Positions 1-14,283 of a stretch of DNA of 14,283 bases are shown piece by piece. The position numbers were made by a program, and so were the translations under genes. Positions within the stretch are counted from its first letter, which is position 1, and each line of letters begins with the position of its first letter. Source of the stretch: a virus. The notes under the pieces were generated by a model. The model searched no databases. It was given only the letters and a program-made list of their open reading frames with translations, and had not been told where the DNA came from. The stretch lies in UHGV virus genome UHGV-0283667; one strand, given 5' to 3'.

Positions 1-77
1 CCTGCGCCCACGTTATAGACGAACGAGTAAAGAGCGCCGCGCGTTGTTTCCGGTATATCGACTTTGATGTACGGGTT
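1..77 (-). pseudogene. Phage endolysin (T4-lysozyme-like, GH24) fragment; reading frame runs leftward out of the window and is cut off near position 77
   Basis: Reverse-complement translation of 1-77 gives ...[26 protein letters not shown], matching the conserved core of enterobacterial prophage lysozymes. Similarity stops near 77, where the + strand Rz frame begins. Confidence 0.55.
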
Positions 78-385
78 ATTACCGTGATAACGCAATCGCC
101 TACAAAGAGCAGCGCGATAACAAGGCCAGTGAACTGGAGAAGGCGAACGCTACCATCGCTGACATGCGGAAGCGTCAACGTGATGTAGCAGAACTCGACG
201 CAAGATACACAAAGGAGCTTGCTGATGCTAACGCGACTATCGAAAGTCTCCGTGCTGATGTTTCTGCTGGGCGTAAGCGCCTGCAAGTCGCCGCCACCTG
301 TGCAAAGTCAACGACCGGTCTCACAGAAAAGCCGCCCCGAGATGGTCGCCACCATATACGGCAGTTCTCAGGCTCAACTTTCTGA
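68..385 (+). pseudogene. Rz-like inner-membrane spanin (i-spanin) fragment lacking the N-terminal transmembrane segment and the native C-terminus
   Basis: Frame opens after the TGA at 65-67. Translation [80 protein letters not shown] is lambda Rz-like (about residues 25-103). After position 316 the frame reads a non-Rz tail ([22 protein letters not shown]) to the stop at 383-385. Confidence 0.7.
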
Positions 386-398
386 AAGGCTCGGGTGA
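225..398 (+). CDS. Rz1-like outer-membrane lipoprotein spanin (o-spanin), 57 aa, in the +1 frame of Rz
   Basis: Not in the ORF track (under 60 aa). RBS AGGAG at 213-217, ATG at 225. Translation [57 protein letters not shown] has a lipoprotein signal with lipobox Cys followed by a Pro-rich stretch, as in lambda Rz1. The C-terminal part lies in the inverted segment and may not be native. Confidence 0.5.
257..316. repeat. Left arm of a 60-bp inverted repeat (58/60 identical to the reverse complement of 641-700)
   Basis: Read directly: 257-316 equals the reverse complement of 641-700 except at 266/691 and 307/650. The match does not extend at either end. Confidence 0.9.
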
Positions 399-437
399 TG
401 TAATAGGCGCGTGAGATGCGCTGTGAAATTCAGATGT

Positions 438-464
438 AAAAAAAGCCCCGCATCGCGAGGCTCA
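438..464 (-). terminator. Rho-independent terminator on the minus strand, just downstream of the minus-strand Rz fragment
   Basis: Minus-strand sequence GAGCCTCGC-GAT-GCGGGGC followed by seven U: 7-bp GC-rich stem with one G-U pair. The stem sequence is nearly identical to the + strand terminator at 1201-1226. Confidence 0.6.
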
Positions 465-493
465 TTAAATGGACTTTGTGATTTGCAAAAAAA

Positions 494-775
494 TTATTTC
501 AGGCATTGCGTCCTGATGTATTCCTGCAGGTAGTTAACCTGCGCGGTTATCTTGTCGATTCCACTTCGGAGACGGTAATAATTGAGTTCAGCATCTGCTG
601 TAAGTCCTGGGCTTTCTCCATCGCCCATGCCGCTGGCTCTGGTCGTTGATTTTGCACAGGTGGCGGCGACTTGCAGGCGCTTACGCCCAGAAGAAACATC
701 GTTTGAGGTTAAGCATCTGGCGCGCGGTAAGTGGTTGCGTTGAAATAAGAGCCAGTCCATTACAAATTTCATCAA
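494..775 (-). pseudogene. Rz (i-spanin) C-terminal portion encoded on the minus strand, fused to an unrelated 25-aa N-terminal leader
   Basis: From the arm at 700 downward the translation [66 protein letters not shown] matches the lambda Rz C-terminus, including the ...YI..QC end. The first 25 residues are not Rz-like, and the start is TTG/ATG with no clear RBS. Confidence 0.65.
641..700. repeat. Right arm of the 60-bp inverted repeat
   Basis: Reverse complement of 257-316 with two mismatches. Confidence 0.9.
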
Positions 776-870
776 GCGTTATTGGTAAGGGTGATAATTA
801 TGAGATACCTCTTCACTAAGAGTAATCTTAAGGGTAATGTGTAACCTCACTTTTTAATACGGAGGTTGTA

Positions 871-1095
871 ATGTTAGAGAATTATTTCCCTTCAGGAATA
901 GGTGCTCAGCCTGTAACTCAAGCTCAAAAACAGAGGGTTATAGCTGTTCAAGCTGCCCTTGAATTAGTTAAGGCCTCACTTTCTTCTGCAGGTGGTCAGG
1001 CTACAAGTGCAAAATTTGAACAGGAATTAAAAGCAGCTATTGGCTTAATTGAACCATTAGCCGATGCCATTCAGAAAGCAATCAGCAAAGAATAA
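871..1095 (+). CDS. Hypothetical small protein (74 aa) in an AT-rich moron-like insert between the lysis and packaging modules
   Basis: RBS GGAGG at 861-865, ATG at 871. The 780-1200 region is visibly AT-rich compared with flanking phage genes. Protein is helical-looking and hydrophilic with no signal peptide or TM segment. Followed by the terminator at 1201-1226. Confidence 0.6.
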   Translation: MLENYFPSGIGAQPVTQAQKQRVIAVQAALELVKASLSSAGGQATSAKFEQELKAAIGLIEPLADAIQKAISKE

Positions 1096-1200
1096 ATAAA
1101 CCACCTGCATTTTGTTTTATTTCCCAACTAACGGGTGTAATAATCTTAATGTTTCCCGTGGATAGATAAGACAATAAGTATTCACCTTCAAGATATAAAC

Positions 1201-1226
1201 GAGCCTCGCTAATGCGAGGCTTTTTT
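1201..1226 (+). terminator. Rho-independent terminator
   Basis: GAGCCTCGC-TAAT-GCGAGGC followed by TTTTTT: perfect 7-bp stem, 4-nt loop, T-run. Confidence 0.8.
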
Positions 1227-1261
1227 ACGCATTGTAAGCGTGCACCAAAGAGGGGATATAA

Positions 1262-1612
1262 ATGCCACCACGAACCCCAAAAGCCTGCCGTTTTCGCGGT
1301 TGCCGCAATACCACGACTGATCCGTCAGGCTATTGCGAAAGCCACAAAAGCGAGGGCTGGAAGCAATACAAGCCAGGACAATCCCGTCATCAGCGCGGTT
1401 ATGGTTCGAAGTGGGACAGTATCCGCGCGGGTGTCCTGAAGCGTGACAAAGGCCTGTGTCAGTTATGTCTGCGTGCTGGTGTGGTGCGTGAGGCGAAAAC
1501 CGTTGACCACATCATCCCTAAAGCGCATGGCGGCACTGATGCCGACTGTAATCTGCAGAGTCTGTGCTGGCCGTGTCATAAGGCGAAGACGGCCCGTGAA
1601 CGACTTAAGTGA
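1262..1612 (+). CDS. HNH endonuclease (phage packaging-associated)
   Basis: RBS GAGGGG about 6 nt upstream of ATG 1262. Cys-rich N-terminus and HNH motif ...VDHIIPKAHGG...NLQSLCWPCHKAKT. Position immediately upstream of terminase small subunit is typical of HK97-like phages. Confidence 0.9.
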   Translation: MPPRTPKACRFRGCRNTTTDPSGYCESHKSEGWKQYKPGQSRHQRGYGSKWDSIRAGVLKRDKGLCQLCLRAGVVREAKTVDHIIPKAHGGTDADCNLQSLCWPCHKAKTARERLK

Positions 1613-1638
1613 TAATAATTCTCAACTGTCTGAGGGGA

Positions 1639-1698
1639 GGGGCGGGTCAAATCTCTGTGACCTGACGTCTTCCGGACTGCCCGCCCCATCGTTTTTTT
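1639..1698. other. Candidate cos/packaging-signal region: 8-bp GC inverted repeat around a 32-bp spacer, then a T7 run
   Basis: GGGGCGGG at 1639-1646 and CCCGCCCC at 1680-1687, followed by the T-run at 1692-1698. Lies between the HNH and terminase small subunit genes, where HK97-like phages place cos. The cleavage site cannot be determined from sequence alone. Confidence 0.3.
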
Positions 1699-1737
1699 AT
1701 ACCCGCGAAAAATGAAATTTAACCAGGAGTGCCGCAT

Positions 1738-2232
1738 ATGGCTGGAACGGCGGGGCGTTCCGGGCGTCGCCCCAAGCCAACGGCGCGCAAGGCGCTGGCC
1801 GGAAACCCCGGCAAGCGAGCCCTGAATAAAGATGAACCCGTTTTTACGCCCATCAAAGGTGTTGAGCCACCGGAGTGGTTCGCTGAAGAAGAGCTCCCTC
1901 TCGCCACGATCATGTGGCAACTGACAACCAAAGAACTCTGTGGTCAGGGCCTGCTGTGCGTGACTGACCTCGCAGTGCTTGAGCGGTGGTGCGTAGCCTA
2001 TGAGTTCTGGCGACGTGCTGTGAAAAATATTGCCAGCCAGGGCAACACCATCACCGGTGCAATGGGCGGCATGGTCAAAAATCCGGAGCTGACCGCCAAA
2101 AAAGAACAGGAGTCCGAGATGAGCAGTACGGGGGCAATGCTCGGACTCGACCCCAGCAGCCGCCAGCGTCTGATTGGCCTGGCGGGGCAGAAGAAAGCCA
2201 CTAACCCGTTTCTGAAAATTATCGAATCATGA
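1738..2232 (+). CDS. Terminase small subunit (P27-family-like)
   Basis: RBS AGGAG at 1725-1729, ATG at 1738 (the ORF track begins at an upstream GTG, 1729). About 164 aa with a basic N-terminus. The stop overlaps the terminase large subunit start (ATGA at 2229-2232). Confidence 0.85.
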
Positions 2233-3110
2233 GCCGGAAATCTTACCCCAACGTAAATGCAGCAAATCAGTATGCCCGGGATGTCGTGCGCGGAAAGATT
2301 GTTGCCTGCCAGTTTGTGATTCAGGCCTGCCAGCGCCATCTTGATGACCTGATGGCGGAAAAAAGTAAGTCGTTTCGTTACCGCTTCGACAAGGACCTGG
2401 CTGAACGGGCCGCCAAATTTATTCAGCTGTTGCCGCACACCAAGGGTGAGTGGGCATTTAAACGGATGCCCATCACGCTGGAGCCGTGGCAGCTATTTGT
2501 GATCTGCTGTGCGTTTGGCTGGGTCAATAAAGGCACCCGGTTGCGCCGCTTCCGGGAGGTGTATACCGAAATTCCCCGTAAGAACGGCAAATCGGCAATC
2601 TCTGCCGGTGTTGCCCTGTATTGTTTTGCCTGTGATAACGAGTTCGGCGCGGAAGTGTATTCCGGTGCCACGACGGAGAAACAGGCATGGGAAGTCTTTC
2701 GTCCGGCACGACTGATGTGTAAACGCACACCCATGCTGACGGAAGCGTTCGGGATTGAGGTTAACGCCTCAAACATGAACCGTCCGGAGGATGGTGCGCG
2801 GTTTGAACCGCTGATCGGTAACCCCGGTGATGGTTCATCACCCCACTGTGCCGTGGTGGATGAATATCACGAGCACGCCACAGATGCGCTTTACACCACG
2901 ATGCTTACCGGGATGGGGGCGCGACGCCAGCCACTGACCTCGAACTGCTCAAGAGTCAGTGATTTATCCTCGCAGCTCTGCCAGCTCACCAGGTTGAAAT
3001 ACGCCGAACGCGCCGACACCCAGATATTGAGGTGTTTTGTTTTAAAGACGTTTGCCAGACGGGCGTTATTTTTCGCACGTTGCTGCTGGCTTAACAAAAA
3101 CTCGCGATAA
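2229..3110 (+). CDS. Terminase large subunit, N-terminal ATPase part; family similarity ends near 2938 and the rest of the ORF is out-of-sense read-through
   Basis: Walker A-like IPRKNGKS and Walker B-like AVVDEYHEH, then ...[11 protein letters not shown]. From about 2939 the + frame reads junk ([13 protein letters not shown]...) to the stop at 3108-3110. Confidence 0.8.
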
Positions 3111-3200
3111 ACCGACACACCGATATTCGGGTTAGCTTTTTCAAGTACCTGCGGGTCGGTCCAGTCGTCGCCTTCGTCAACGGTATAGATGATCCTGGCC
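2939..3200 (-). other. Internal terminase large subunit segment in inverted orientation (sense on the minus strand)
   Basis: Minus-strand translation [87 protein letters not shown] carries the terminase signature DDW.DP...KANPN...FKTKHLN.W. It lies exactly between the N- and C-terminal + strand parts, which share one reading frame. Confidence 0.75.
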
Positions 3201-3749
3201 CCGCGTTTCTGGGTACCGTATGACACGGTGTATAGCGTCGAGAAAAATGAAGATCGCCGGACAGCCGAACGCTTTCAGAAATGGGTGGAAATGGGCGTCC
3301 TGACCGTTACCGATGGTGCAGAGGTGGATTATCGCTACATCCTCGAAGAGGCCAAAGCGGCGAACAAAATCAGCCCGGTCAGCGAGTCACCCATCGACCC
3401 CTTCGGGGCGACCGGGTTGTCACATGACCTTGCTGATGAAGACCTGAACCCCGTCACCATCATTCAGAACTACACCAACATGTCCGACCCGATGAAAGAG
3501 CTGGAAGCGGCAATTGAATCGGGGCGCTTTCATCATGATGGCAATCCCATCATGACCTGGTGTATCGGCAACGTGGTCGGAAAAACCATTCCGGGTAACG
3601 ATGATGTGGTGAAACCCGTCAAAGAGCAGGCGGAAAACAAAATCGATGGTGCAGTTGCGCTGATTATGGCGGTTGGCAGAGCCATGCTGTACGAGAAAGA
3701 AGACACGCTGTCTGACCACATTGAGTCCTACGGGATCCGCTCGCTTTAA
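3189..3749 (+). CDS. Terminase large subunit, C-terminal nuclease part (family similarity from about 3201)
   Basis: ...[20 protein letters not shown]...[18 protein letters not shown]...[16 protein letters not shown] is typical of the Terminase_1 C-terminal nuclease domain. Same frame (0) as the N-terminal part. Confidence 0.8.
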
Positions 3750-3829
3750 CTGAGGTAATTATGATCATGCTGATTCTCGCGCCTCTGGTAGGCGTGCTGG
3801 GGGCGCTTTTGCTGGCGTATGGTGTTCAG

Positions 3830-3937
3830 GCTGCCGTTCAGGTGATACAGATTGCAGGGCAACATCCCGACCGACTCTGCCAGCACCCTGACGCAGGAAA
3901 AAACCGCCGTCAGTCGCATGGCCCGCTGGCTGCTGAT
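3830..3937 (-). other. Portal protein N-terminal conserved segment in inverted orientation
   Basis: Minus-strand translation ISSQRAMRLTAVFSCVRVLAESVGMLPCNLYHLNGS matches the N-terminal conserved helix of HK97-family portals, but lies on the strand opposite the portal body. Confidence 0.65.
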
Positions 3938-3953
3938 CTGCTTTCCGGTATAG

Positions 3954-4814
3954 GTGTCATATGACACTGGCTGTGTGGTACCGAAGCTTAACAGTAGCTG
4001 GGAGCCGGTCTATCAGGTCACATTCCCGGACGGCTCCACGGATGTGCTGACCCAGGAGGATATCTGGCATGTGCGCACGCTGACGCTGGACGGTCTGGTG
4101 GGACTGAATCCCATCGCCTATGCCCGCGAGGCAATATCGCTGGCAGCAGCGACTGAAGAGCACGGTGCCAGACTGTTCAGCAATGGCGCGGTGACGTCCG
4201 GTGTGTTGCGTACAGAACAGACGCTGTCGGATCAGGCTTATGAGCGCCTGAAGAAAGATTTTGAGGAGCGTCACACCGGGCTTGGCAATGCTCACCGCCC
4301 GATGATCCTTGAGATGGGGCTGGACTGGAAGTCGATGGCGCTGAACGCCGAGGACAGCCAGTTCCTGGAAACCCGCAAGTTTCAGCTTGAAGAAATCTGT
4401 CGTCTGTTCCGTGTGCCCTTGCACATGGTGCAGAACACCGATCGCGCCACCTTCAACAATATCGAAGAGCTGGGGCTGGGATTTATCAACTATTCACTGG
4501 TGCCGTATCTGACCCGTATTGAGCAGCGGATCAACACCGGACTGGTACGAAAAAGTAAGCAGGGCGTTTATTACGCCAAATTTAACGCCGGGGCGTTACT
4601 GCGCGGGGATATGAAGTCCCGTTTTGAAGCCTACGCCACCGGGATCAACTGGGGAATTTACTCTCCCAATGACTGCCGCGACCTGGAAGATATGAATCCG
4701 CGTCCCGGTGGTGATGTCTATCTCACACCGATGAACATGACCACGAAACCCTCCGATGGTAGTAAAGCCGGTAAGCAGAAGGATAACGCCAATGCAGACG
4801 AAACAACGTCTTGA
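3954..4814 (+). CDS. Portal protein (HK97 family), body and C-terminus; N-terminal region missing from this strand
   Basis: ...EPVYQVTFPDGSTDVL...LVGLNPIAYAREAISLAAATEEHGARLFSNGAVTSGVL...FLETRKFQLEEICRLFRVPLHMVQ...GGDVYLTPMNM is portal-like. The ORF opens at GTG 3954 inside a 14-bp palindrome, with a frame-0 stop at 3951-3953 immediately upstream. Confidence 0.85.
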   Translation: MSYDTGCVVPKLNSSWEPVYQVTFPDGSTDVLTQEDIWHVRTLTLDGLVGLNPIAYAREAISLAAATEEHGARLFSNGAVTSGVLRTEQTLSDQAYERLKKDFEERHTGLGNAHRPMILEMGLDWKSMALNAEDSQFLETRKFQLEEICRLFRVPLHMVQNTDRATFNNIEELGLGFINYSLVPYLTRIEQRINTGLVRKSKQGVYYAKFNAGALLRGDMKSRFEAYATGINWGIYSPNDCRDLEDMNPRPGGDVYLTPMNMTTKPSDGSKAGKQKDNANADETTS

Positions 4815-5442
4815 TGTACCGCTGAGTCTGAAATCTGTCAGTGACTCCGGTGAGTTTGAAGGGTATGGCTCCGTCTTTGGTGTAAAGGACAGCCACGATG
4901 ATGTGGTGATGTCCGGGGCATTTGCTGCTTCCCTGCGGGCGTGGAGTGACAGAAAAACGTTACCTGCGCTGCTCTGGCAGCACCGCATGGATGAACCCAT
5001 CGGTGTTTACACCGAAATGAAGGAAGACGATGTCGGGCTTTACGTCAGGGGACGGTTGCTCATTGATGATGATCCCCTCGCAAAACGCGCACATGCACAC
5101 ATGAAGGCCGGTTCGTTAACCGGCCTTTCTATTGGGTACGTCCTGAAAGACTGGGAATACGACCGGAGCAAAGAAGCCTTTCTGTTGAAAGAAATCGACC
5201 TCTGGGAAGTCAGTCTGGTGACGTTCCCGTCTAACGACGAGGCGCGGATCAGCAACGTCAAGAACGCGCTGGCCCGCGGGGAAATCCCCGAACAGAAAAA
5301 AATCGAAAGAGTCCTGCGTGATGTCGGACTCTCCCGTACCCAGGCCAAAGCATTCATGGCCGGGGGCTATGGCGCACTGTCCCTGCGCGACGCTGAGGAT
5401 GTGGGCTCTGCACTGAATGCACTTAAAAATCTGAACTTCTAA
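4792..5442 (+). CDS. Prohead maturation protease (HK97 family)
   Basis: RBS AAGGA at 4779-4783, ATG at 4792 (track start 4756 has no RBS). Overlaps the portal 3' end. HK97-protease-like sequence. Confidence 0.85.
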   Translation: MQTKQRLDVPLSLKSVSDSGEFEGYGSVFGVKDSHDDVVMSGAFAASLRAWSDRKTLPALLWQHRMDEPIGVYTEMKEDDVGLYVRGRLLIDDDPLAKRAHAHMKAGSLTGLSIGYVLKDWEYDRSKEAFLLKEIDLWEVSLVTFPSNDEARISNVKNALARGEIPEQKKIERVLRDVGLSRTQAKAFMAGGYGALSLRDAEDVGSALNALKNLNF

Positions 5443-5456
5443 TCAGGAGAAATACG

Positions 5457-6662
5457 ATGGCGGTTGATATTAAAGATGTGGAACAGGTCGCGCAGGAGCT
5501 GCAGCAGAAGTTTGACGACTTCAGGGCAAAGAACGACAAGCGCGTGGATGCGATTGAGCAGGAAAAAGGCAAACTTGCCGGGCAGGTGGAAACCCTGAAC
5601 GGGAAACTCAGCGAGCTGGAAAATCTCAAAAGCGACCTTGAAAAAGAGCTGCTTGAGCTGAAACGTCCGGCAGGTGGTGCGCAAAATAAACTGGCCACAG
5701 AGCACAAAGAGGCGTTTGTGGGCTTTCTGCGTAAAGGCCGTGAAGACGGTCTGCGCGATCTGGAGCGCAAGGCATTGCAGGTGGGCACTGATGAAGACGG
5801 TGGCTATGCCGTGCCGGAAGCACTGGATCGCAACATTCTCACCCTGCTGAAAGATGAAGTGGTGATGCGCCAGGAAGCCACGGTGATCACTGTTGGCGGT
5901 TCCGACTACAAAAAACTGGTGAATCTGGGCGGCACGGCTTCCGGATGGGTGGGCGAGACTGACGCGCGCTCCCAGACTGCCACCTCAAAACTGGGACTGA
6001 TTGAACCTTTCATGGGGGAAATCTACGGTAACCCGCAGGCCACTCAGAAAATGCTGGATGATGCCTTCTTCAACGTGGAGGCCTGGATCAACAGCGAGCT
6101 GGCGACCGAATTTGCCGAACAGGAAGAAATTGCCTTTACCACCGGTGATGGCACTAAGAAGCCAAAAGGGTTCCTGGCGTATGAATCCACCGATGAAACC
6201 GATAAGGTTCGTGCGTTCGGTAAACTTCAGCATATTGTATCCGGTGAAGCGACGACGGTGACCGCAGACGCCATTATCAAACTGATTTACACGCTGCGTA
6301 AGGCACACCGCACTGGCGCGAAGTTCATGATGAACAACAACAGCCTGTTTGCCATCCGTCTGCTGAAAGACACCGAGGGTAACTATCTGTGGCGTCCGGG
6401 GCTGGAGCTGGGGCAACCGTCCTCTCTGGCGGGTTACGGTATCGCTGAAAACGAACAGATGCCGGATATCGCCGCTGATGCGAAAGCTATTGCATTTGGT
6501 AACTTCAAACGGGGTTACACCATCGTTGACCGTATCGGTACCCGCATTCTGCGTGATCCGTACACCAATAAACCGTTTGTCGGTTTTTATACCACCAAGC
6601 GCACCGGCGGCATGCTGGTCGATTCGCAGGCCATCAAACTGCTGAAGATTGCAGCGGCGTAG
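5457..6662 (+). CDS. Major capsid protein (HK97 fold) with N-terminal coiled-coil delta/scaffold domain
   Basis: RBS AGGAG at 5443-5447. The first ~100 aa are a charged coiled coil (KLSELENLKSDLEKELLELK), followed by a capsid domain of HK97-like length (401 aa total). Confidence 0.9.
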   Translation: MAVDIKDVEQVAQELQQKFDDFRAKNDKRVDAIEQEKGKLAGQVETLNGKLSELENLKSDLEKELLELKRPAGGAQNKLATEHKEAFVGFLRKGREDGLRDLERKALQVGTDEDGGYAVPEALDRNILTLLKDEVVMRQEATVITVGGSDYKKLVNLGGTASGWVGETDARSQTATSKLGLIEPFMGEIYGNPQATQKMLDDAFFNVEAWINSELATEFAEQEEIAFTTGDGTKKPKGFLAYESTDETDKVRAFGKLQHIVSGEATTVTADAIIKLIYTLRKAHRTGAKFMMNNNSLFAIRLLKDTEGNYLWRPGLELGQPSSLAGYGIAENEQMPDIAADAKAIAFGNFKRGYTIVDRIGTRILRDPYTNKPFVGFYTTKRTGGMLVDSQAIKLLKIAAA

Positions 6663-6670
6663 TCATTCAG

Positions 6671-6688
6671 GGGCGCTGAATTGCGCCC
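6671..6688 (+). terminator. GC-rich stem-loop directly after the major capsid gene; possible partial terminator or mRNA stabiliser
   Basis: GGGCGC-TGAATT-GCGCCC, followed by TTGTTCT (weak U tract). Confidence 0.35.
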
Positions 6689-6711
6689 TTGTTCTGACAG
6701 GTGAAAGAATC

Positions 6712-6900
6712 ATGATCCTGAAACAAGATCTGAAATGGTCACCGGACGGTATGCGCGTTGAGATCATTCGTGCTGGTGAGTATGAAGATAAAGAATTACC
6801 CGAACGGGTACGTGAAATTGCCACTGCAGCAGGGATTGTTTCTGATAAGAGAACACCTGTTGCACGGGTATCTGATAAGGCTAAAAAACAGCATTCATAG
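6712..6900 (+). CDS. Hypothetical small protein (62 aa) between capsid and connector genes
   Basis: ATG at 6712 in frame with track ORF 6649..6900. Hydrophilic, no recognisable family. Lower GC than neighbours. Confidence 0.45.
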   Translation: MILKQDLKWSPDGMRVEIIRAGEYEDKELPERVREIATAAGIVSDKRTPVARVSDKAKKQHS

Positions 6901-6911
6901 AGGTAGCCCAA

Positions 6912-7217
6912 ATGATGCCTACTCTGGAAGAGCTTCGTGTTCAGTGCCGGATTGATGATGACAATGAACAGGAGAATGCACTTCTTATGATGTATCTGGC
7001 AGCAGCCAGAGAAGAGGCTGAAAAGTTTTTAAACCGGACACTTCACGATGAAACTGTTCCTGATCAGGATACGACCGGGCTTGTAATAACACCACTGATA
7101 AAGTTGCGTCTTATGCAACTGGTTGGCTACTGGTACGAGAACAGGGAAATGCAGGATGCTGTACCTGATTTTTTCTATACCGGACTCCGAATGTATCGGT
7201 TTCATCCCGGAACATAG
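6912..7217 (+). CDS. Head-tail connector protein (gp6-like)
   Basis: N-terminal pattern M.PTLEELRVQCRIDDD...ALL..YLAAAREE typical of gp6-like connector proteins. Size 101 aa and position after the capsid gene fit. Confidence 0.7.
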   Translation: MMPTLEELRVQCRIDDDNEQENALLMMYLAAAREEAEKFLNRTLHDETVPDQDTTGLVITPLIKLRLMQLVGYWYENREMQDAVPDFFYTGLRMYRFHPGT

Positions 7218-7226
7218 GAGGATTTC

Positions 7227-7565
7227 ATGCAGGCAGGAAGATTACGTGATCGCGTGGTTATTCTGAATATTACGACCTCCCGTACCCCTTCCGGTCACCC
7301 GGAGGAAACCCTGAAAGAGGGGGCTACGGTATGGGCAGAGGTTAAGGGGATCAGTGGGCGGGAACGTATATCGGGCGGTGCGGAAACCGCGCAGACAACA
7401 GTAAGAGTCTGGATGCGATTTCGGCGCGATGTGACGGCCGCCTCACGTCTGAAAGTGCTGACCGGGGCATTCAAGGGAGCCATTCTGAATATCGACGGGC
7501 CGCCGATCCCGGACGCACGATCCTCCAGGCTTGAAATACTTTGCAGCCAGAGAGGTGGAATGTGA
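7227..7565 (+). CDS. Head closure / head-tail adaptor protein
   Basis: RBS AGGAGG 7 nt upstream of ATG 7227. N-terminal MQAGRLRDRVVI motif typical of the head-tail joining family. 112 aa. Confidence 0.7.
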   Translation: MQAGRLRDRVVILNITTSRTPSGHPEETLKEGATVWAEVKGISGRERISGGAETAQTTVRVWMRFRRDVTAASRLKVLTGAFKGAILNIDGPPIPDARSSRLEILCSQRGGM

Positions 7566-8011
7566 CGGATTTTAGTCTGGATTTTTCTGGCCTGGCGGAT
7601 ATTGCAAGAGATCTGGAACTTCTCAGCAGAGCAGAGAGTAATAAGGTGCTTCGCGATGCCTCCCGTGCCGGTGCAGAGGTTATCCGGGAGGCGGTTATTG
7701 ATCATGCGCCAGAGCGAACCGGAAAACTGAAGAAAAACGTGGTTATTCTGACTCAGCGTTCACGGCGTCGTGGTGAAATTATCTCTGGTGTCCACATTCG
7801 TGGGCGGAATCTGCGAACCGGAAACAGTGATAACAGCATGAAAGCCAGCGATCCGCGAAACGCGTTTTACTGGCGTTTCGTGGAGCTGGGGACTATCAAT
7901 ATGCCTGCCCATCCGTTCATTCGCCCGGCCTTTGATACGACAGAGGAGCTGGCAGCACAGGTTGCCATGAAGCATATGAATCAGGCTATTGATGGGGTGC
8001 TGAGTAAATGA
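7562..8011 (+). CDS. Tail component, HK97 gp10-like family
   Basis: Likely GTG start at 7562 after RBS AGAGGTGG (track start is TTG 7541). Motifs ...IDHAPERTGKL... and ...FYWRFVELGT...PAHPFIRPAFD resemble the gp10 family. Confidence 0.65.
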   Translation: MTDFSLDFSGLADIARDLELLSRAESNKVLRDASRAGAEVIREAVIDHAPERTGKLKKNVVILTQRSRRRGEIISGVHIRGRNLRTGNSDNSMKASDPRNAFYWRFVELGTINMPAHPFIRPAFDTTEELAAQVAMKHMNQAIDGVLSK

Positions 8012-8352
8012 GAGAAGCCACGCTGTATGCTCTTCTGTCCCAACTGGCCGGAGGGCAGGTTTATCCTTATGTGGTCCCGCTGACGGAGGGAAAGCCTGCG
8101 GTATCTCCACCATGGCTGGTGTTTTCAGTGGTGTCTGACATCGCGTCTGATGTGCTTGATGGTCAGGCTGAATCCAGAATTACCGTGCAGATTGATATCT
8201 GGGCAACGGCTCCTGATGACGCAGATGATATCCGTGAGCAGGCGCTTGATGCGGTAAGGGAACTGGCACCATCCGTTATTTCTAAAACTCAGGGTTATGA
8301 TCCTGATTCCCGTCTGAGCAGAGCTACGCTTGAATTTCAGGTAATAGCCTGA
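8008..8352 (+). CDS. Tail completion protein (DUF3168-like)
   Basis: ATGA start/stop overlap with the upstream gene. N-terminal ...LYALL...VYPYVVP... pattern. 114 aa. Confidence 0.55.
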   Translation: MREATLYALLSQLAGGQVYPYVVPLTEGKPAVSPPWLVFSVVSDIASDVLDGQAESRITVQIDIWATAPDDADDIREQALDAVRELAPSVISKTQGYDPDSRLSRATLEFQVIA

Positions 8353-8373
8353 GGTCGTTAATGATTTTACCCA

Positions 8374-8394
8374 CCCGCCGCTGGCGGGTTTTTT
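8374..8394 (+). terminator. Intrinsic terminator-like hairpin immediately upstream of the major tail protein gene
   Basis: CCCGCC-GCT-GGCGGG followed by TTTTTT. Confidence 0.6.
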
Positions 8395-8411
8395 ATTTTC
8401 AGGAGACGAGT

Positions 8412-9116
8412 ATGTCCTCTAATTTTGAACGTTCTCAGCAGACCAAAGTCATGATCTCGTCTGCACCGGTAACGGCAGAAACGCTGAGTTCTGCCAGTTT
8501 TCTTGAACTGAGCTGTACGATTAAAGAGGTTCAGTTTACCGCCGGGCAGAAACAGGATATTGATGTCACTACGCTGTGTTCTACCGAGCAGGAGAATATC
8601 AACGGTCTTGGGGCTGCTTCAGAGATTTCCATGTCAGGAAACTTTTATCTCAACTCTGCCCAGAACGCGTTGCGTAGTGCTTATGACAACGACACCACAT
8701 ACGGTTTCAAAGTTATTTTCCCGTCAGGAAATGGATTTACTTTTATGGCAGAAGTTCGCCAGCATACCTGGTCTGTGGGAACCAACGGTGTTGTTGCTGC
8801 CACATTTTCCCTGCGCCTGAAAGGAAAGCCCTCTCTGACCACTGAACCTTTGAAACTCCTCTCTGATTTGAAAAGTACACTACAGGTTTCTGCCAGTGAA
8901 ACGCTGAATATGTCTGTTGAGGCATCAGGTGGTGTGCCTCCTTATTCATATGTCTGGAAGAAAGGCAGCTCTCCAGTTTCCGGGCAGACATCGGCAACTT
9001 TCAACAAGGCCTCCGTGACATCCGGAGATGCCGGTGCGTATACCTGTGAGGTTTCTGATTCAGCAAGCCCGATTAATAAGGTGACCTCCACTTCCTGCAC
9101 CGTAACTGTCAGTTAA
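8412..9116 (+). CDS. Major tail protein with C-terminal Ig-like domain
   Basis: RBS AGGAG 6 nt upstream of ATG 8412 (track start 8361 lies inside the terminator). The C-terminal ~85 aa look like a Big_2/Ig-like domain. Confidence 0.8.
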   Translation: MSSNFERSQQTKVMISSAPVTAETLSSASFLELSCTIKEVQFTAGQKQDIDVTTLCSTEQENINGLGAASEISMSGNFYLNSAQNALRSAYDNDTTYGFKVIFPSGNGFTFMAEVRQHTWSVGTNGVVAATFSLRLKGKPSLTTEPLKLLSDLKSTLQVSASETLNMSVEASGGVPPYSYVWKKGSSPVSGQTSATFNKASVTSGDAGAYTCEVSDSASPINKVTSTSCTVTVS

Positions 9117-9130
9117 GGAGGATGAAATCT

Positions 9131-9502
9131 ATGTCTAAAAATATCCGCAATCTGGCACTGGCGACGATGTCTGGTTTTCGCCACAAAACAGTTGATGTTC
9201 CTGAGTGGGAAGGTACAACGGTTGTATTACGGGAACCCTCTGCAGAAGCCTGGTTACGTTGGCAGGAGATCGTTAAAACCGGAGATGATGATACACCGTT
9301 ATCAGTTGCGGAGCGTGCCCGCCGAAATCTGGAAGCGGATGTTGAACTGTTCATCGATGTTCTGTGTGATACCGGGATGCAACCCGTGTTTTCAGCGGAT
9401 GATCGGGAGCAGGTACTTGCAGTATATGGTCCGGTACATGCGCGACTGCTTCGTCAGTCACTGGAACTGATCACTGATGCTGAAGTTATTAAAAAAAAGT
9501 AG
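9131..9502 (+). CDS. Tail assembly chaperone (gpG-like)
   Basis: RBS AAGGAGG at 9115-9121, ATG at 9131. Acidic ~124-aa protein directly upstream of the tape measure gene, ending in a slippery A-run. Confidence 0.75.
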   Translation: MSKNIRNLALATMSGFRHKTVDVPEWEGTTVVLREPSAEAWLRWQEIVKTGDDDTPLSVAERARRNLEADVELFIDVLCDTGMQPVFSADDREQVLAVYGPVHARLLRQSLELITDAEVIKKK

Positions 9503-9804
9503 CACTTCCGGGTATTCGTTTTCTGATGATGCTGGCGCTCAGGATGGGGCGCACATTGTCAGAGTTACGCCGGGAAATGTCTGCATCGGAAATCATGATG
9601 TGGGCAGAATTTGACAGGATCAGCCCGCTGGGTGACGAGCGGGCTGATATCCGGGCTGCCCAGATAGTTTCTGCAGTTTACGGGGCGCAGGGTGTCAAAG
9701 TTCCACTGAATGAAGCGATTCTTCAGTGGGAGGTCGTTCCTGCAAATAATATTAAAGATCCGTTCACAGCGTTTGAAAATGCATTATTTGCAGCGACACA
9801 ATGA
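9131..9804 (+). CDS. Tail assembly chaperone frameshift fusion product (gpGT-like) by -1 ribosomal frameshift at 9493-9499
   Basis: The -1 frame is open from 9493 through the stop at 9802-9804. The slippery run sits just before the G stop at 9500-9502. Confidence 0.65.
9491..9499 (+). promoter_or_regulatory. Programmed -1 frameshift slippery site (A AAA AAG)
   Basis: Heptamer A-AAA-AAG at 9493-9499 within the run AAAAAAAAG (9491-9499). Confidence 0.65.
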
Positions 9805-9814
9805 TCTTCTTACT

Positions 9815-9844
9815 TTACTGGATTATGATTCCGATTTTTATTAA
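9815..9844 (+). promoter_or_regulatory. Candidate sigma-70 promoter for the downstream moron
   Basis: TTACTG (9815-9820), 18-bp spacer, TATTAA (9839-9844), in an AT-rich intergenic stretch. Confidence 0.3.
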
Positions 9845-9862
9845 GTAAATAAGGAGATATTG

Positions 9863-10204
9863 ATGGAAGTTATTCTTATTGCGCTAGTCCTGGGGTTAAT
9901 TCCGGCTATTATCGCGCAAAGTAAAGGGCGTTCATTTTGGGGATGGTGGATATACGGAGCCTTACTCTTTATCGTTGCCTTGGTTCATTCACTTGTAATC
10001 CAAAAAGATGAAAAAACGCATGAGCAACAAATGGTGAGCAATGGCATGAAAAAATGCCCTTACTGTGCGGAGTTGATCAAAGAAGAAGCCATTAAGTGTA
10101 AGCATTGCGGTAGTGATTTAACACATAACCCTGATAGTACCGTTTCGCAAAAAACGGATGATGAATATCTTGAAGAAGCAAGGCGTAAGGCTGGGCTTCT
10201 TTAA
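9863..10204 (+). CDS. Moron: small membrane protein with two predicted TM helices and a C-terminal zinc-ribbon (CPYC...CKHC)
   Basis: RBS AAGGAG at 9851-9856, ATG at 9863. Two hydrophobic stretches, then CPYC-x13-CKHC. AT-rich codon usage unlike flanking tail genes. Own terminator downstream. Confidence 0.7.
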   Translation: MEVILIALVLGLIPAIIAQSKGRSFWGWWIYGALLFIVALVHSLVIQKDEKTHEQQMVSNGMKKCPYCAELIKEEAIKCKHCGSDLTHNPDSTVSQKTDDEYLEEARRKAGLL

Positions 10205-10209
10205 AAGCA

Positions 10210-10234
10210 AAAACCGCTTCGGCGGTTTTTTTTT
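10210..10234 (+). terminator. Rho-independent terminator (A-tract upstream, so possibly bidirectional)
   Basis: AAAACCGC-TTCG-GCGGTTTT followed by a T9 run. Confidence 0.75.
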
Positions 10235-10249
10235 GCCTGGAGAACGAGA

Positions 10250-13200
10250 ATGGCGTCACTACGCGAACTGATTATAAAAATCTCGGCAAATTCGCAGTCA
10301 TTCCAGTCAGAAATTGCGCGAGCTTCACGTATGGGACAGGAGTACTACCGTACCATGCAGAACGGAGGTCGACAGTCTGCAGCTGCATCCCGTGATATGC
10401 GGCGAGCACTGGCAGAAGTGACCGAGCAGATAAATACGGCGAAGTCTTCGGCAATGAATATGGCTGGCGCATTTGCCGGTGCTTTTGCCACTGGACATCT
10501 TATATCTCTTGCGGATGAATGGAGCTCAGTAAATGCCCGTTTGAAGCAGGCCACGCAGTCCAGCGATGATTTCCAGGCATCACAGCGCGAATTAATGGCG
10601 ATCAGCCAGAGAACGGGTACTGCTTTTGCTGATAACGCCAGTCTTTTTGCACGTTCGGCTTCTTCCATGCGGGAATATGGTTACAGGTCTGAGGAAGTAC
10701 TGAAAGTTACCGAGGCCATTTCTACAGGATTGAAATTGTCCGGAGCCAGTTCTGCGGAAGCCAGCTCGGTGATCACTCAGTTCAGCCAGGCACTGGCGCA
10801 AGGGGTTCTGCGCGGTGAAGAGTTTAATTCAGTAAATGAAAGCGGTGATCGTGTTATTCGTGCTCTGGCTGCAGGAATGGGGGTTGCCCGTAAAGATCTG
10901 AAGGCAATGGCGGATGATGGAAAGCTGACCGCCGATAAGGTTGTTCCTGCACTGATTAGCCAGCTTGGTACGCTGCGGGATGAATATGCAGCCATGCCTG
11001 ATACCGTATCATCCTCTGCAACCAAAGTTGAAAACGCCTTTATGGCCTGGGTTGGTGGTGCGAATGATGCCAGCGGTGCAACGAAAACGCTTACCGGAAT
11101 AATGAATGGTGTTGCGAATAATATTGATACGGTTGCCACGGCGGCGGGAGCTCTGGTTGCAATTGGTGTAGCCCGATATTTTGGCAATATGGCGTCTTCT
11201 GCGGGCTCTGCAACTGCCGGGTTAATCACTGTTGCCAGAAACGAAGTGGCTCTTGCTGAGGCACAGCTCAGAGGGACACAGATAGCAACAGCCAGAGCGC
11301 GGGCGGCATTGTATCGTGCGCAGCAGGCGGTTGTGGCTGCCCGTGGTACAGAAAAACAGGCTGCAGCAGAAGCGAAACTGGCAACCGCACAGGCTTCACT
11401 TACCCGTAATATTGCTGCCAGAACAGCGGCACAGGCAACGCTGAATAACGTTACGTCAGTTAGTAGTCGGTTGTTAAGCGGTGCTCTGGGGCTGGTTGGT
11501 GGTGTGCCTGGACTTGTCATGCTGGGGGCGGCGGCCTGGTACACAATGTATCAGAACCAGGAGCAGGCCAGAGAATCAGCGCGTCAGTATGCCGCAACAA
11601 TCGACGAAATTCGCCAGAAAACGTCTGCAATGTCACTTCCTGAAGCGGCAGATAATGAAGAAAAGACGCGGCAGGCTCTGGAGGAGCAGAACAGGTTAAT
11701 TGACGAGCAGAAAAGTAAGATTAAATCCTTACAGGAAAAAATTGCTGGCTATCAGTATGTCCTGGCAAACCCGGGCTGGACAACCGATAACGGTTTTATG
11801 ATTAACCACATGACGTCGGTGAAAACTGTCACAGAAGGGCTTGCAGAAGCAACAAGTCAGCTGGCTGTTGAGCAGTCCCGACTTTCCGGAATGCAGGAAA
11901 AAGCCCAGTCAATCCAGGATGTGCTTGCCGGGCTGGAAGAACGACGAGTGGTGCTGATCCGCCAACAGGCAGCGGAACAAAACAAAGCATATCAGTCATT
12001 ACTGATCATGAATGGCCAACATACCGAGTTTAATCGTCTTCTTGGGCTTGGTAATGAATTACTTCAGCAGCGACAGGGGCTGGTGAATGTACCGTTACGG
12101 CTGCCACAGGCTGCTCTGGATGATAAACAGCAGAACGCGCTGAATAACACTGAGCGAGAGCTGACCTTATCCCGTATGAAGGGGGAAGCGCGTGAGCGTA
12201 CTCGTCTGGGCTATGTAGCGGATGATCTCGGTTTTGTGGGGGATGCCTATCAGACGGCAAGGCAAACTTATATCAACAACGCGCTGGAAGCATGGCGTAA
12301 CAACCAGGCGAATAAGCCAAAGGTACGTGGTGGAAAATCGGAAGCAGAAAAAACGGAAGATGCTTATAACAGACTGATTAAACAACAAAAAGAACAAATA
12401 GCACTGGCAGGACAGAATACTGAACTGGCTAAGATGAAATACCAGGTCAGCCAGGGCGAATTATCAACCTTATCAGAAGCGCAGAAACAAACCCTTTTAC
12501 AGAATGCAGCACTCATCGACCAGAAAAAAATTCGTGAGCAAATTGCTGCTTATGAAAGCAGCCTGGCGGACAGTAACGCCAGTGTCAGGGCATCAAATGA
12601 GGCTCAGTTGTTAGGGTATGGAGACGGAACACGAATACGTGAGCGGCTTCAGGAAATGTGGAACATCCGACAGGAGTTTGAGCAGAAAAATAATGAGTTG
12701 CTGAGACAGTACCAGACCGGAGAAATCGAAGAAGCCCTGTGGAAACAGGAAAAAACGCTGAATGAAAAATATCTGGAGGAGCGTCTCAACGATCAGCAGG
12801 ATTATTATGCAAAGGCCGATGCTTTACGCAGTAACTGGAATGCTGGGCTCAAAGAGGGGCTGACGAACTGGGCAGACAGTGCCACTGATTATGCTTCACA
12901 AGCGGCAGATGCGGTCGTTTCCACTATGGATGGTCTGGTTTCAAATATTTCCGAGGCACTGGCCGGAAACGTTGTGGACTGGAGAAACTGGGGGAGTTCG
13001 ATCCTTCAGGAAGTTTCAAAAATCCTGATGAACGCGGCCATTGTTAACGGGCTGAAATCACTCTCCGGGACAATGTCGGGAGCGGGGGGATGGATTGGTA
13101 GTGTTGGCGACTGGCTTTCCGGTGCAGTAGCGAACGCAAAAGGCGGTGTTTACACATCGGCAAATCTGAGTGCTTACAGTAACACCATTGTGGATACGCC

Positions 13201-13492: not shown

Positions 13493-13826
13493 ACCTGAAG
13501 CTTTTAACTGGATCCCCCGCGAGGGGATGGAGACGACACGAAAGCCATCTGTTATTACGGTAAAGTTCGGTGACGGATATGAACAGCGACGGGCTGGTGG
13601 TCTGAATGCGGATCTGAAAACGTTTAAACCGGTATTTCGGGTCACAGATGAATATTCCCGCGCTGCGCTGGACAGTTTTTTATCCCGTCATGCCGGGATG
13701 CGTGCTTTTTTGTGGCGTCCGCCAAAATACAACAGGACCGTCCGGGTTGTCTGCAGGGAGTGGAGTATTTCGGATAATGCCATGTATACCGATTTTAACT
13801 GTACCTTTGAAGAGGTCACTCACTGA
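13485..13826 (+). CDS. Minor tail protein M (lambda gpM-like)
   Basis: Likely GTG start at 13485 after RBS GGAGGA, overlapping the tape measure 3' end (track start is TTG 13440). ...VKFGDGYEQRRAGGLNADLKTFKPVF...FLWRPP... matches lambda M. Confidence 0.85.
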   Translation: MPEPEAFNWIPREGMETTRKPSVITVKFGDGYEQRRAGGLNADLKTFKPVFRVTDEYSRAALDSFLSRHAGMRAFLWRPPKYNRTVRVVCREWSISDNAMYTDFNCTFEEVTH

Positions 13827-14218
13827 TGCAGGATATACAGCAGGAAACACTGAATGAGTGTACAAAATCGGAGCAATCCGCGCTGGTCGTGCTCTGGGAA
13901 GTCGATCTGACAGAGGTCGGCGGAGAGCGTTATTTTTTCTGTAATGAGCAGAACGAAAAAGGTGAGTCGGTCACCTGGCAGGGGCGACAGTATCAGGCGT
14001 ACCCTATTCAGGGAAGCGGCTTTGAGATGAACGGCAAAGGAGCCAGTGCAAGACCAACGCTGAAAGTCTCTAACCTGCACGGCATGGTCACCGGGATGGC
14101 GGAAGACCTGCAGAGTCTGGTCGGCGGAAAGGTAGTCAGGCGTAAGGTTTGCCAAAGTTGCCGACGTTATTGCGAAACTTACAGCCACTCAGGCATTTGC
14201 TGCATTTATCCTTCGTGA
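13826..14218 (+). CDS. Minor tail protein L (lambda gpL-like), N-terminal 108 aa; family similarity ends at 14149
   Basis: MQDIQQETLNECTKSEQSALVVLWEVDLTEVGGERYFFCNEQNEKGE.VTWQGRQYQ.YPIQGSGFE.NGKG...VVRRKV is nearly identical in pattern to lambda L. From 14150 the frame reads non-L sequence. Start overlaps the M stop. Confidence 0.85.
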   Translation: MQDIQQETLNECTKSEQSALVVLWEVDLTEVGGERYFFCNEQNEKGESVTWQGRQYQAYPIQGSGFEMNGKGASARPTLKVSNLHGMVTGMAEDLQSLVGGKVVRRKVCQSCRRYCETYSHSGICCIYPS

Positions 14219-14283
14219 TATCGGACGTCGGCTGGTCATATTCATCCGCGACAGCCGGACCGCTATAACCGCACTCATCACCG
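14150..14283 (-). other. Minor tail protein L C-terminal region in inverted orientation; continues beyond the window end
   Basis: Minus-strand translation GDECGYSGPAVADEYDQPTSDITKDKCSKCLSGCKFRNNVGNFG matches the Cys-rich C-terminal region of lambda L. Confidence 0.75.

What the first reader, a model, noticed from the sequence alone, without database searches (positions are those of the whole stretch)
1..385. Head-to-head junction of truncated endolysin and truncated Rz at about position 77
Reading the minus strand from 77 toward 1 gives a GH24 lysozyme core ([26 protein letters not shown]). Reading the + strand from 77 gives Rz from about residue 25 ([14 protein letters not shown]...). Canonical lambdoid lysis cassettes carry endolysin and Rz on the same strand, with the Rz N-terminal transmembrane segment directly after the endolysin. 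Here the Rz TM segment is absent and the endolysin points the other way. This is consistent with an inversion of a block that ends at about 77 and extends left of the window.
Basis: partly seen in the sequence, partly recalled or inferred. Interest (0 to 1): 0.6.

Follow-up and report, generated by a model that had tools for sequence, protein, structure and literature searches.

The report
Private strand-flip junctions in a prophage
The back-to-back endolysin and Rz fragments are really in the sequence, but they form one of at least eight blunt, homology-free strand flips scattered through an otherwise ordinary E. coli prophage, so this is most likely a sequence-construction artefact (or dead, shattered DNA), not a new lysis-gene arrangement.

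Summary
Window 77->3 (- strand) encodes residues 87-111 of an RrrD/phage-21-type SAR endolysin. Window 78-316 (+) encodes Rz residues 26-104. The two 5'-truncated genes meet head to head at 77/78.

The junction is not a lysis-cassette feature, for three reasons.
- Rz breaks again at 316/317, where the sequence flips into the reverse complement of an Rz 3' end plus terminator (317-700). It flips once more at 700/701.
- Compared with near-identical public prophages, the window has three more short inverted islands: 2938-3195, 3825-3966 and 14151-14283. Where both sides lie inside the window, 105-197 bp of reference sequence is missing on each side. These events break terL, portal and tail protein L.
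- All eight junctions are blunt (0-2 nt microhomology), have no flanking inverted repeats and share no motif.

Three junction k-mers were absent from the three contig collections, and no record in the three BLAST collections spans the left end. Two chimeric ORFs were not in the public gene index. All 19 relatives read carry the canonical same-strand order.

Best reading: an artefact of how the sequence was built (mis-assembly, chimeric template or in-silico rearrangement). The rival is a recently shattered dead prophage. Either way the lysis remnants are non-functional. Interest is low.

The parts
1..77 (-). Fragment of an RrrD/phage-21-type SAR endolysin (GH24), residues 87-111 only. The N-terminal 86 residues (SAR segment and catalytic region) are absent. 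The fragment runs off the left edge of the window.
   Evidence: (L003 4798-4875, 96%)
77..78 (.). Junction J1: head-to-head join of the endolysin fragment and the Rz fragment. One base is ambiguous, and 232 bp of the reference cassette between the breakpoints are missing.
   Evidence: The 30-mer across J1 is absent from viral, genome and metagenome contig collections. No complete E. coli genome, phage or plasmid record spans it.
78..316 (+). Rz (i-spanin) fragment, residues 26-104, DLP12-type allele (99.6% to the E. coli HKUOPY1 lysis protein). It lacks the N-terminal transmembrane segment and the C-terminal third. It carries the 5' part of the embedded Rz1 frame, which is also cut at 316.
316..317 (.). 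Junction J2: forward Rz joins the far end of an inverted Rz 3' end plus downstream fragment. At most 2 nt of microhomology.
317..700 (-). Inverted fragment holding Rz residues 85-152 with the stop codon (700->494), a terminator hairpin (466->436) and DLP12-type downstream sequence (to 317). The allele is a hybrid: K-type bases at 640, 650 and 691, DLP12-type bases at 521, 542 and 552.
   Evidence: (a terminator is annotated in the HK106/phi80 matches)
257..316 (.). Left arm of a 60-nt inverted repeat (right arm 641-700, 97% complementary). The same Rz stretch (codons 85-104) is present in both orientations, taken from two different alleles.
700..701 (.). Junction J3: the inverted Rz fragment joins the forward HK97-like prophage at L004 6001. 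It is blunt, and 104 bp of the K-type reference are missing.
   Evidence: The junction 30-mer is absent from the metagenome and viral collections.
701..2937 (+). Collinear HK97-like prophage, 100% identical to E. coli 1517k: tail of hyp50, hyp74, HNH endonuclease, P27-family terS and the 5' part of terL.
2938..3195 (-). Inverted 258-bp island inside terL (L004 8603->8346). 108 bp and 105 bp of reference are missing on its two sides.
   Evidence: The junction k-mer is absent from the genome and viral collections. The chimeric ORF is not on record.
3825..3966 (-). Inverted 142-bp island in the 5' part of the portal gene; the replaced stretch takes in the ymfR 3' end and the portal start (L004 9676->9535). 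197 bp and 173 bp of reference are missing on its two sides.
14151..14283 (-). Inverted island of at least 133 bp in minor tail protein L (L004 20374->20242). 208 bp are missing on its left, and it runs off the window. A private substitution (14130 A, C in all relatives) lies 20 nt to its left.

Best explanation
The endolysin/Rz head-to-head junction is one of at least eight blunt strand-switch junctions in this 14.3-kb window. Apart from these junctions, the sequence is an ordinary, widespread HK97-like E. coli prophage, with scraps of a DLP12-type lysis cassette at its left end.

Short pieces of 130-390 bp sit in reverse orientation but in their original order. Where both sides can be seen, 105-197 bp are lost on each side.

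Because the junctions have no homology, are private to this sequence and destroy several essential genes in DNA that is otherwise base-identical to public genomes, the most likely origin is non-biological. Candidates are mis-assembly or mis-oriented placement of small contigs, a chimeric template, or in-silico rearrangement. A biological inversion of a lysis-gene block is less likely.

Whatever its origin, nothing here can work as a lysis cassette. There is no holin. The endolysin is present only from residue 87. One Rz copy lacks its membrane anchor and its C-terminus. The second Rz piece, inverted, holds residues 85-152 only.

Shown: the anatomy, the blunt junctions, their absence from every collection searched, and the canonical order in all relatives. 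Inferred: the artefactual origin.
For: - Segment mapping: window 1-78, 78-318 and 315-700 map to one DLP12-type cassette in alternating orientation. Window 701 onward is 100% identical to the E. coli 1517k prophage except for inverted islands at 2938-3195, 3825-3966 and 14151-14283 with lost flanks.
- Six further public loci show the same three islands as inverted relative to the window, so the window is the odd one out. L005 differs from the forward segments by only 2 nt.
- Junction microhomology is 1, 2, 0, 0, 0, 0, 0, 0 nt. There are no inverted repeats above chance within +-40 nt of the breakpoints and no common motif.
- All 5 small pieces are inverted and none is a simple deletion. The order is always preserved.
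- Uniqueness: no complete E. coli genome (5,426), phage (50,697) or plasmid (72,556) record spans the left end. K-mers for J1, J3 and J4 are absent from the viral, GTDB and JGI contig collections. Chimeric ORFs that keep their native start codons are not in the 153-billion-gene index. By contrast, the intact tape measure and terS proteins of the same window occur in 244 and 331 blocks of that index, and the 16 places read are all canonical.
- The two arms of the 60-nt inverted repeat come from different Rz alleles. The inverted piece is itself a K-type/DLP12-type hybrid that switches inside an 86-nt identical stretch, as a repeat-induced chimera would.
Against: - No reads or assembly graph are available, so an artefact is inferred rather than shown.
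- Standard de Bruijn-graph errors switch paths inside shared k-mers. The flips here have no shared sequence, so no specific, well-known assembler failure reproduces blunt inverted islands with lost flanks.
- Base-level accuracy is otherwise perfect, which argues against a generally poor assembly.
- One private substitution 20 nt from a junction could equally be a mark of error-prone repair in vivo.
- Deletion-inversion-deletion events are a known class of real structural variant.
Confidence: 0.6

Rival explanations
1. The rearrangement is real and recent. A resident prophage and a DLP12-type cassette were shattered locally by several double-strand breaks or replication template switches. They were rejoined without homology, giving a series of deletion-inversion-deletion scars and leaving a dead prophage.
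For: - The pattern (order kept, short middle piece inverted, both flanks trimmed) matches the delINVdel class of complex structural variants.
- 100% identity elsewhere means the events would be very recent.
- A private substitution lies 20 nt from J8.
- All the genes hit are dispensable for the host.
Against: - At least five independent events in 14 kb, with essentially no point divergence, would be needed.
- There is no microhomology at 7 of 8 junctions, although E. coli end joining and template switching normally use some.
- None of the junctions appears in 5,426 complete E. coli genomes or in any other collection.
- Pieces at the left end come from at least two different loci or alleles.
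Confidence: 0.25
2. A single inversion of a block ends at about 77 and extends left of the window, for example an exchange between two oppositely oriented lambdoid prophages or a clean 310-bp local inversion. Reversing it would restore endolysin followed by a full-length Rz.
For: - The orientation switch at 77/78 is real.
- Arithmetic on the reference cassette allows a clean inversion of RrrD codon 87 to Rz codon 25, with its other end 232 bp left of the window.
Against: - Recombination between prophages would place the junction inside shared homology and yield intact hybrid genes. Here the join is blunt, between non-homologous points of two different genes.
- Rz is broken again 239 bp later, and the same kind of flip recurs five more times beyond the lysis region, in the structural genes.
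- The events whose two sides lie inside the window lose sequence there, so the Rz N-terminus would probably not be restored.
Confidence: 0.08
3. Template-switch chimeras arose during whole-genome amplification (phi29 multiple displacement amplification). [quoted passage not shown]
For: In MDA products, 85% of chimeras are inverted joins with an intervening deletion, mostly within 10 kb and favouring nearby segments (PMC1855051). Long MDA molecules carry one chimeric join per roughly 3-11 kb (bioRxiv 10.1101/2022.08.13.503872).
Against: 93.5% of proximal inverted MDA junctions show at least 2 bp of complementarity (PMC1855051). Here 7 of 8 junctions have fewer than 2 nt. The probability of that under the MDA rate is about 4e-8.
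Confidence: 0.05

Closest known systems
DLP12-type lysis cassette of E. coli (essD holin, rrrD SAR endolysin, rzpD/rzoD spanins), related to the phage 21 lysis genes
   Same: The three left-end fragments are 96-99.6% identical in DNA to this cassette in E. coli HKUOPY1. They belong to the same Pfam families, PF00959 and PF03245.
   Different: The canonical cassette is complete and lies on one strand. Here only residues 87-111 of the endolysin, 26-104 of Rz and 85-152 of a second Rz allele are present, in alternating orientation and with no holin.
HK97-like E. coli prophage with HNH endonuclease and P27-family small terminase (for example in strains 1517k and AH01, and assembly GCA_964055825.1)
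   Same: Window 701-14283 is 99.97-100% identical, segment by segment.
   Different: The window carries three short inverted islands with lost flanks that break terL, portal and tail protein L. All 19 relatives read are collinear and intact at whichever of these sites their stretch covers.
Deletion-inversion-deletion (delINVdel) complex structural variants, known mainly from human genomes (from my own knowledge, not tested here)
   Same: A short inverted segment stays in its original position with sequence lost on both sides.
   Different: Real cases are usually single events, often with microhomology or templated insertions. Here there are at least five events in 14 kb, all blunt.
MDA (phi29) inverted chimeras
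   Same: [quoted passage not shown]
   Different: Junction complementarity is expected in about 93% of proximal cases and is absent here.

Membership tests
Functional lambdoid lysis cassette (holin, endolysin, Rz/Rz1 spanins) | Holin gene upstream of the endolysin on the same strand | tested here: not met
   tblastn with EssD and both K-type holins finds nothing in the window. The left edge of the window limits this test.
Functional lambdoid lysis cassette (holin, endolysin, Rz/Rz1 spanins) | Complete endolysin with its N-terminal SAR/catalytic region | tested here: not met
   Only RrrD residues 87-111 are present, and residues 1-86 are absent from the whole window. On the minus strand the gene start would lie at coordinates above 77, where Rz sits instead.
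Functional lambdoid lysis cassette (holin, endolysin, Rz/Rz1 spanins) | i-spanin Rz with an N-terminal transmembrane anchor and a full periplasmic domain | tested here: not met
   Fragment 78-316 holds residues 26-104 and fragment 700->497 holds residues 85-152 on the other strand. Residues 1-24 are absent.
Functional lambdoid lysis cassette (holin, endolysin, Rz/Rz1 spanins) | Complete embedded o-spanin Rz1 lipoprotein | tested here: not met
   The plus-strand Rz1 frame is cut at 316, 11 residues after the lipobox Cys. The minus-strand copy starts at the J3 junction with a shortened signal peptide (MFLLGVSAC...).
Site-specific invertible segment (Hin/Gin/Pin-type or inverton) | Inverted repeats at both boundaries of the inverted segment, and inversion without loss of sequence | tested here: not met
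   No inverted repeat above chance lies within +-40 nt of any breakpoint pair. 105-197 bp are lost beside the islands whose two sides lie inside the window. The left boundary of the island ending at 77 is outside the window.
Site-specific invertible segment (Hin/Gin/Pin-type or inverton) | Invertase gene nearby | tested here: not met
   The annotation of the collinear relatives (L004, and L005 to L020) lists no recombinase within the region the window covers. The window's own ORFs were not scanned separately.
Inversion by homologous recombination between oppositely oriented prophages | Junctions lie inside shared homology and produce intact hybrid genes | tested here: not met
   J1 joins RrrD codon 87 to Rz codon 25 with 1 ambiguous base. 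J2 to J8 have 0-2 nt.
MDA / template-switch chimera | Inverted join of nearby segments with an intervening deletion | tested here: met
   The criterion is taken from PMC1855051.
MDA / template-switch chimera | At least 2 bp of complementarity at the junction (93.5% of proximal inverted chimeras) | tested here: not met
   7 of 8 junctions have fewer than 2 nt. P is about 4e-8 under the published rate.
Assembly or sequence-construction artefact | Junctions not supported by reads from the source DNA | not testable with these tools
   No reads or assembly graph are available. Indirect support only: junction k-mers and chimeric ORFs are absent from all public collections searched.

The most novel reading that the evidence does not exclude
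The junctions are real. A resident E. coli prophage and a neighbouring or recombined DLP12-type lysis cassette underwent a localised, chromothripsis-like burst of blunt, homology-independent deletion-inversion-deletion events. This would point to an unrecognised end-joining or fork-collapse process that can scramble prophage DNA in enterobacteria.
Probability: 0.1. Interest if true: 0.55.

Novelty: not a real feature. Interest (0 to 1): 0.08.

Why it matters
This matters mainly as a caution. Read alone, the left 385 bp look like an intriguing inverted lysis cassette. Read against the whole window, they are one symptom of a sequence that has been locally flipped and trimmed at least five times. 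Any gene call, ORF or "novel arrangement" drawn from this window near positions 78, 316, 700, 2937-3195, 3824-3966 and 14150 should be distrusted until reads confirm the junctions. If the junctions proved real, they would be a rare bacterial example of clustered blunt complex rearrangements, but they would still say nothing new about phage lysis.

Tried and rejected
- Inverted-repeat-mediated inversion. The 60-nt inverted repeat (257-316 / 641-700) first suggested a flip between repeat arms. The arms are two different Rz alleles, the flanks do not fit a reciprocal inversion, and no second repeat pair exists.
- A hybrid parent phage. I built a 'restored' cassette (78-316, then the reverse complement of 317-640, then 701-1100) and searched for it. 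No complete E. coli genome carries it contiguously, and none of 10 terS contexts has the DLP12-type downstream piece.
- De Bruijn-graph path switching. It needs shared k-mers at the joins, and none exist. It could explain only the K-type/DLP12-type switch inside 553-639.
- MDA chimeras. Rejected on junction complementarity.
- Restriction or ligation motifs at the breakpoints. None found.
- Finding the source contig to read the left flank. Exact look-ups of two chimeric ORFs and junction k-mer scans of the viral, genome and metagenome collections all returned nothing. Look-ups of intact proteins found only canonical relatives.
- Low-coverage islands as the cause. A gap-free 10-kb stretch, perfect base accuracy and 5 of 5 islands inverted do not fit random coverage gaps with random orientation. 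This is my own reasoning.

Full report
- The minus strand 77->3 reads [25 protein letters not shown]. This is identical to residues 87-111 of the 165-aa lysozyme RrrD, a phage-21-type SAR endolysin, in E. coli HKUOPY1. The short peptide also touches Pfam PF00959.
- The plus strand from 77 reads [14 protein letters not shown].... This is Rz residues 25/26-104 of the neighbouring 'lysis protein' (PF03245, E=2e-24).
- At the DNA level, window 1-78 equals L003 4798-4875 (96%), and window 78-318 equals L003 4565->4325 on the other strand (99.6%).
- Both genes are 5'-truncated and diverge from one point. The 232 bp that separate the two breakpoints in the intact cassette are missing: RrrD codons 113-165 and Rz codons 1-24, which include the transmembrane anchor. 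A holin, RrrD 1-86 and Rz 1-24 occur nowhere in the window.

**2. The region is more broken than the finding says.**
- Rz homology stops at 316. The rest of the '73-aa ORF' to 385 is antisense read-through.
- Window 315-700 is the reverse complement of the Rz 3' end (residues 85-152), its stop codon, a terminator hairpin and DLP12-type downstream DNA. It equals L003 4001-4386 at 98.7%.
- As a result the same 60 nt of Rz occur in both orientations, at 257-316 and 641-700 (97% complementary).
- At 700/701 the sequence switches again, into an HK97-like prophage in forward orientation, 100% identical to L001, L002 and L004.
- Take coordinates along the intact cassette, with the rrrD start as 1. 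The window then reads 335->258 | 568->808 | 1132->747 | prophage.
- The two arms of the 60-nt repeat differ at two positions. The inverted piece is itself a hybrid, with K-type bases at 640, 650 and 691 and DLP12-type bases at 521, 542 and 552. The switch lies somewhere in an 86-nt stretch that is identical in both alleles.
- At least two Rz alleles, and hence two loci, contribute to these 700 bases.

**3. The same kind of event recurs across the window.** I compared the window with the closest complete genome, E. coli 1517k (L004). The mapping is as follows:

| Window | L004 | Orientation |
|---|---|---|
| 701-2937 | 6001-8237 | forward |
| 2938-3195 | 8603->8346 | inverted |
| 3196-3824 | 8709-9337 | forward |
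| 3825-3966 | 9676->9535 | inverted |
| 3967-14150 | 9850-20033 | forward |
| 14151-14283 | 20374->20242 | inverted |

- Reference sequence is missing beside each island: 108 and 105 bp, 197 and 173 bp, and 208 bp.
- These events cut terL, the ymfR/portal boundary and minor tail protein L.
- Six other public loci give exactly the same picture. One of them (L005) differs from the forward segments by only two bases. The only private base, 14130, lies 20 nt from the last junction.
- The window is therefore the exception, and its relatives are the rule.

**4. Nature of the junctions.**
- Ambiguous (microhomologous) bases at the eight junctions number 1, 2, 0, 0, 0, 0, 0 and 0. This is what random blunt joins would give.
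- No inverted repeat above chance lies within +-40 nt of any breakpoint pair.
- The breakpoints share no motif.
- All five small pieces are inverted, none is a simple deletion, and the order is always kept.

**5. Is the arrangement seen anywhere else?** No.
- No complete E. coli genome covers 80% or more of window 1-330 or 1-1300, although thousands match the separate pieces.
- The phage and plasmid collections give the same result.
- K-mers spanning J1, J3 and J4 are absent from IMG/VR, the GTDB representative genomes and the JGI metagenomes.
- Two chimeric ORFs that keep their native start codons are not in the public gene index.
- The intact tape measure and terS proteins of the same window are listed in 244 and 331 blocks of that index. 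All 16 places read have the canonical same-strand order: holin, endolysin, spanin, variable cargo, HNH, terS, an uninterrupted terL (called at 577 aa, or at 498 aa from a later start) and a 408-413-aa portal.
- The lysis module is mosaic among these phages (GH19, GH24, different holins and spanins). It is never inverted, and none of them carries the DLP12-type downstream piece.

**6. What it most likely is.** The junction at 77/78 belongs to a series of short, blunt, private strand flips. I rank the origins as follows.
- **(a) Non-biological, confidence about 0.6.** Examples are mis-oriented placement of small contigs with the gaps closed up, a chimeric template, or deliberate or accidental in-silico rearrangement. 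This fits the absence from every collection searched, the lack of any homology, the systematic orientation, the destruction of several essential genes without any point divergence, and the mixing of two Rz alleles inside a shared repeat. It is inferred, not shown, and I cannot name a specific assembler failure that gives blunt flips.
- **(b) A real, very recent burst of deletion-inversion-deletion events in a now dead prophage, about 0.25.** The topology fits a known class of complex variant, and one private substitution sits near a junction. Five or more events in 14 kb with no microhomology would be extraordinary for E. coli.
A clean 310-bp inversion is arithmetically possible for J1 alone. 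The neighbouring flips and the lost flanks elsewhere make it unlikely. Prophage-prophage homologous exchange is excluded by the blunt, non-homologous join.
- **(d) MDA template-switch chimeras, about 0.05.** The geometry fits, since 85% of MDA chimeras are inverted joins with an intervening deletion (PMC1855051). The junctions do not fit: 93.5% of proximal inverted chimeras show at least 2 bp of complementarity, whereas 7 of 8 junctions here show fewer than 2 nt (P about 4e-8).

**7. Function.** On any of these readings the lysis remnants are inert. There is no holin and no catalytic or SAR part of the endolysin. There is no Rz membrane anchor and no complete Rz periplasmic domain. Rz1 is truncated in both copies. 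The structural module is also disabled in terL, portal and tail L.

**8. Comparison with known systems and novelty.**
- The pieces belong to well-known families: the DLP12/phage-21-type essD-rrrD-rzpD cassette and an HK97-like prophage with HNH and a P27-family terminase.
- The arrangement fails every defining test of a functional lysis cassette, of an invertase-controlled segment, and of homologous inter-prophage inversion.
- It resembles delINVdel variants and MDA chimeras in geometry only.
- I file it as 'not a real feature', with low interest (0.08).
- The most novel reading still open is a genuine clustered, homology-independent shattering of prophage DNA. I give it about 10%; if true it would be moderately interesting (0.55).

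**9. What would settle it.** Any of the following would decide between artefact and real rearrangement: reads or PCR across the eight junctions, at least 500 bp of sequence to the left of the window, or a long-read assembly of the same source.

Noticed in passing
window 2938-3195, 3825-3966, 14151-14283: Three further short inverted islands (258, 142 and at least 133 bp) sit in otherwise 100%-identical prophage DNA. Each has 105-208 bp of reference sequence missing beside it. They break terL, the ymfR/portal boundary and minor tail protein L.
   Followed up: yes
window 257-316 and 641-700: A 60-nt inverted repeat (97% complementary) made of the same Rz stretch (codons 85-104) in both orientations. 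The two arms come from different alleles (GCT/AAG versus TCT/AAA).
   Followed up: yes
window 501-700: The inverted Rz 3' fragment is a hybrid allele. It carries K-type (HK97-like prophage) bases at 640, 650 and 691 and DLP12-type bases at 521, 542 and 552, with the switch inside an 86-nt stretch identical in both. No complete E. coli genome matches the whole fragment (window 315-700) above 98.7%.
   Followed up: partly
window 14130: A single private substitution (A here, C in all six relatives compared) lies 20 nt left of the last strand-flip junction. The other differences from strain 1517k (5962, 10774) are shared polymorphisms.
   Followed up: partly
window 436-466 and 1198-1228: Two similar GC-rich hairpin plus T-run elements lie in opposite orientation (31 nt, 71% complementary). 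The first is the terminator after the inverted Rz fragment. The second follows the 74-aa gene upstream of the HNH endonuclease gene.
   Followed up: no
loci L011-L020 (about 3100-5500) compared with window 1-1260: Among prophages sharing an identical terS, the lysis module is highly mosaic (Phage_holin_3_1, holin_8 plus holin_3_7, or holin_3_3; GH19 or other endolysins; Rz, DUF2570/LysC or Rz1 plus Bor). Variable cargo sits between the spanin and HNH genes (DUF6236, GrlR-like, DUF2513, KAP NTPase upstream). The genes are always on one strand, apart from bor in L017 and the upstream cargo genes (KAP NTPase in L011/L018, two ORFs in L020).
   Followed up: partly
window 9860-10204: A 113/114-aa zinc-ribbon protein gene (PF13248 in relatives) sits between the tail assembly chaperone genes and the 1080-aa tape measure gene. 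It is conserved in all relatives read.
   Followed up: no
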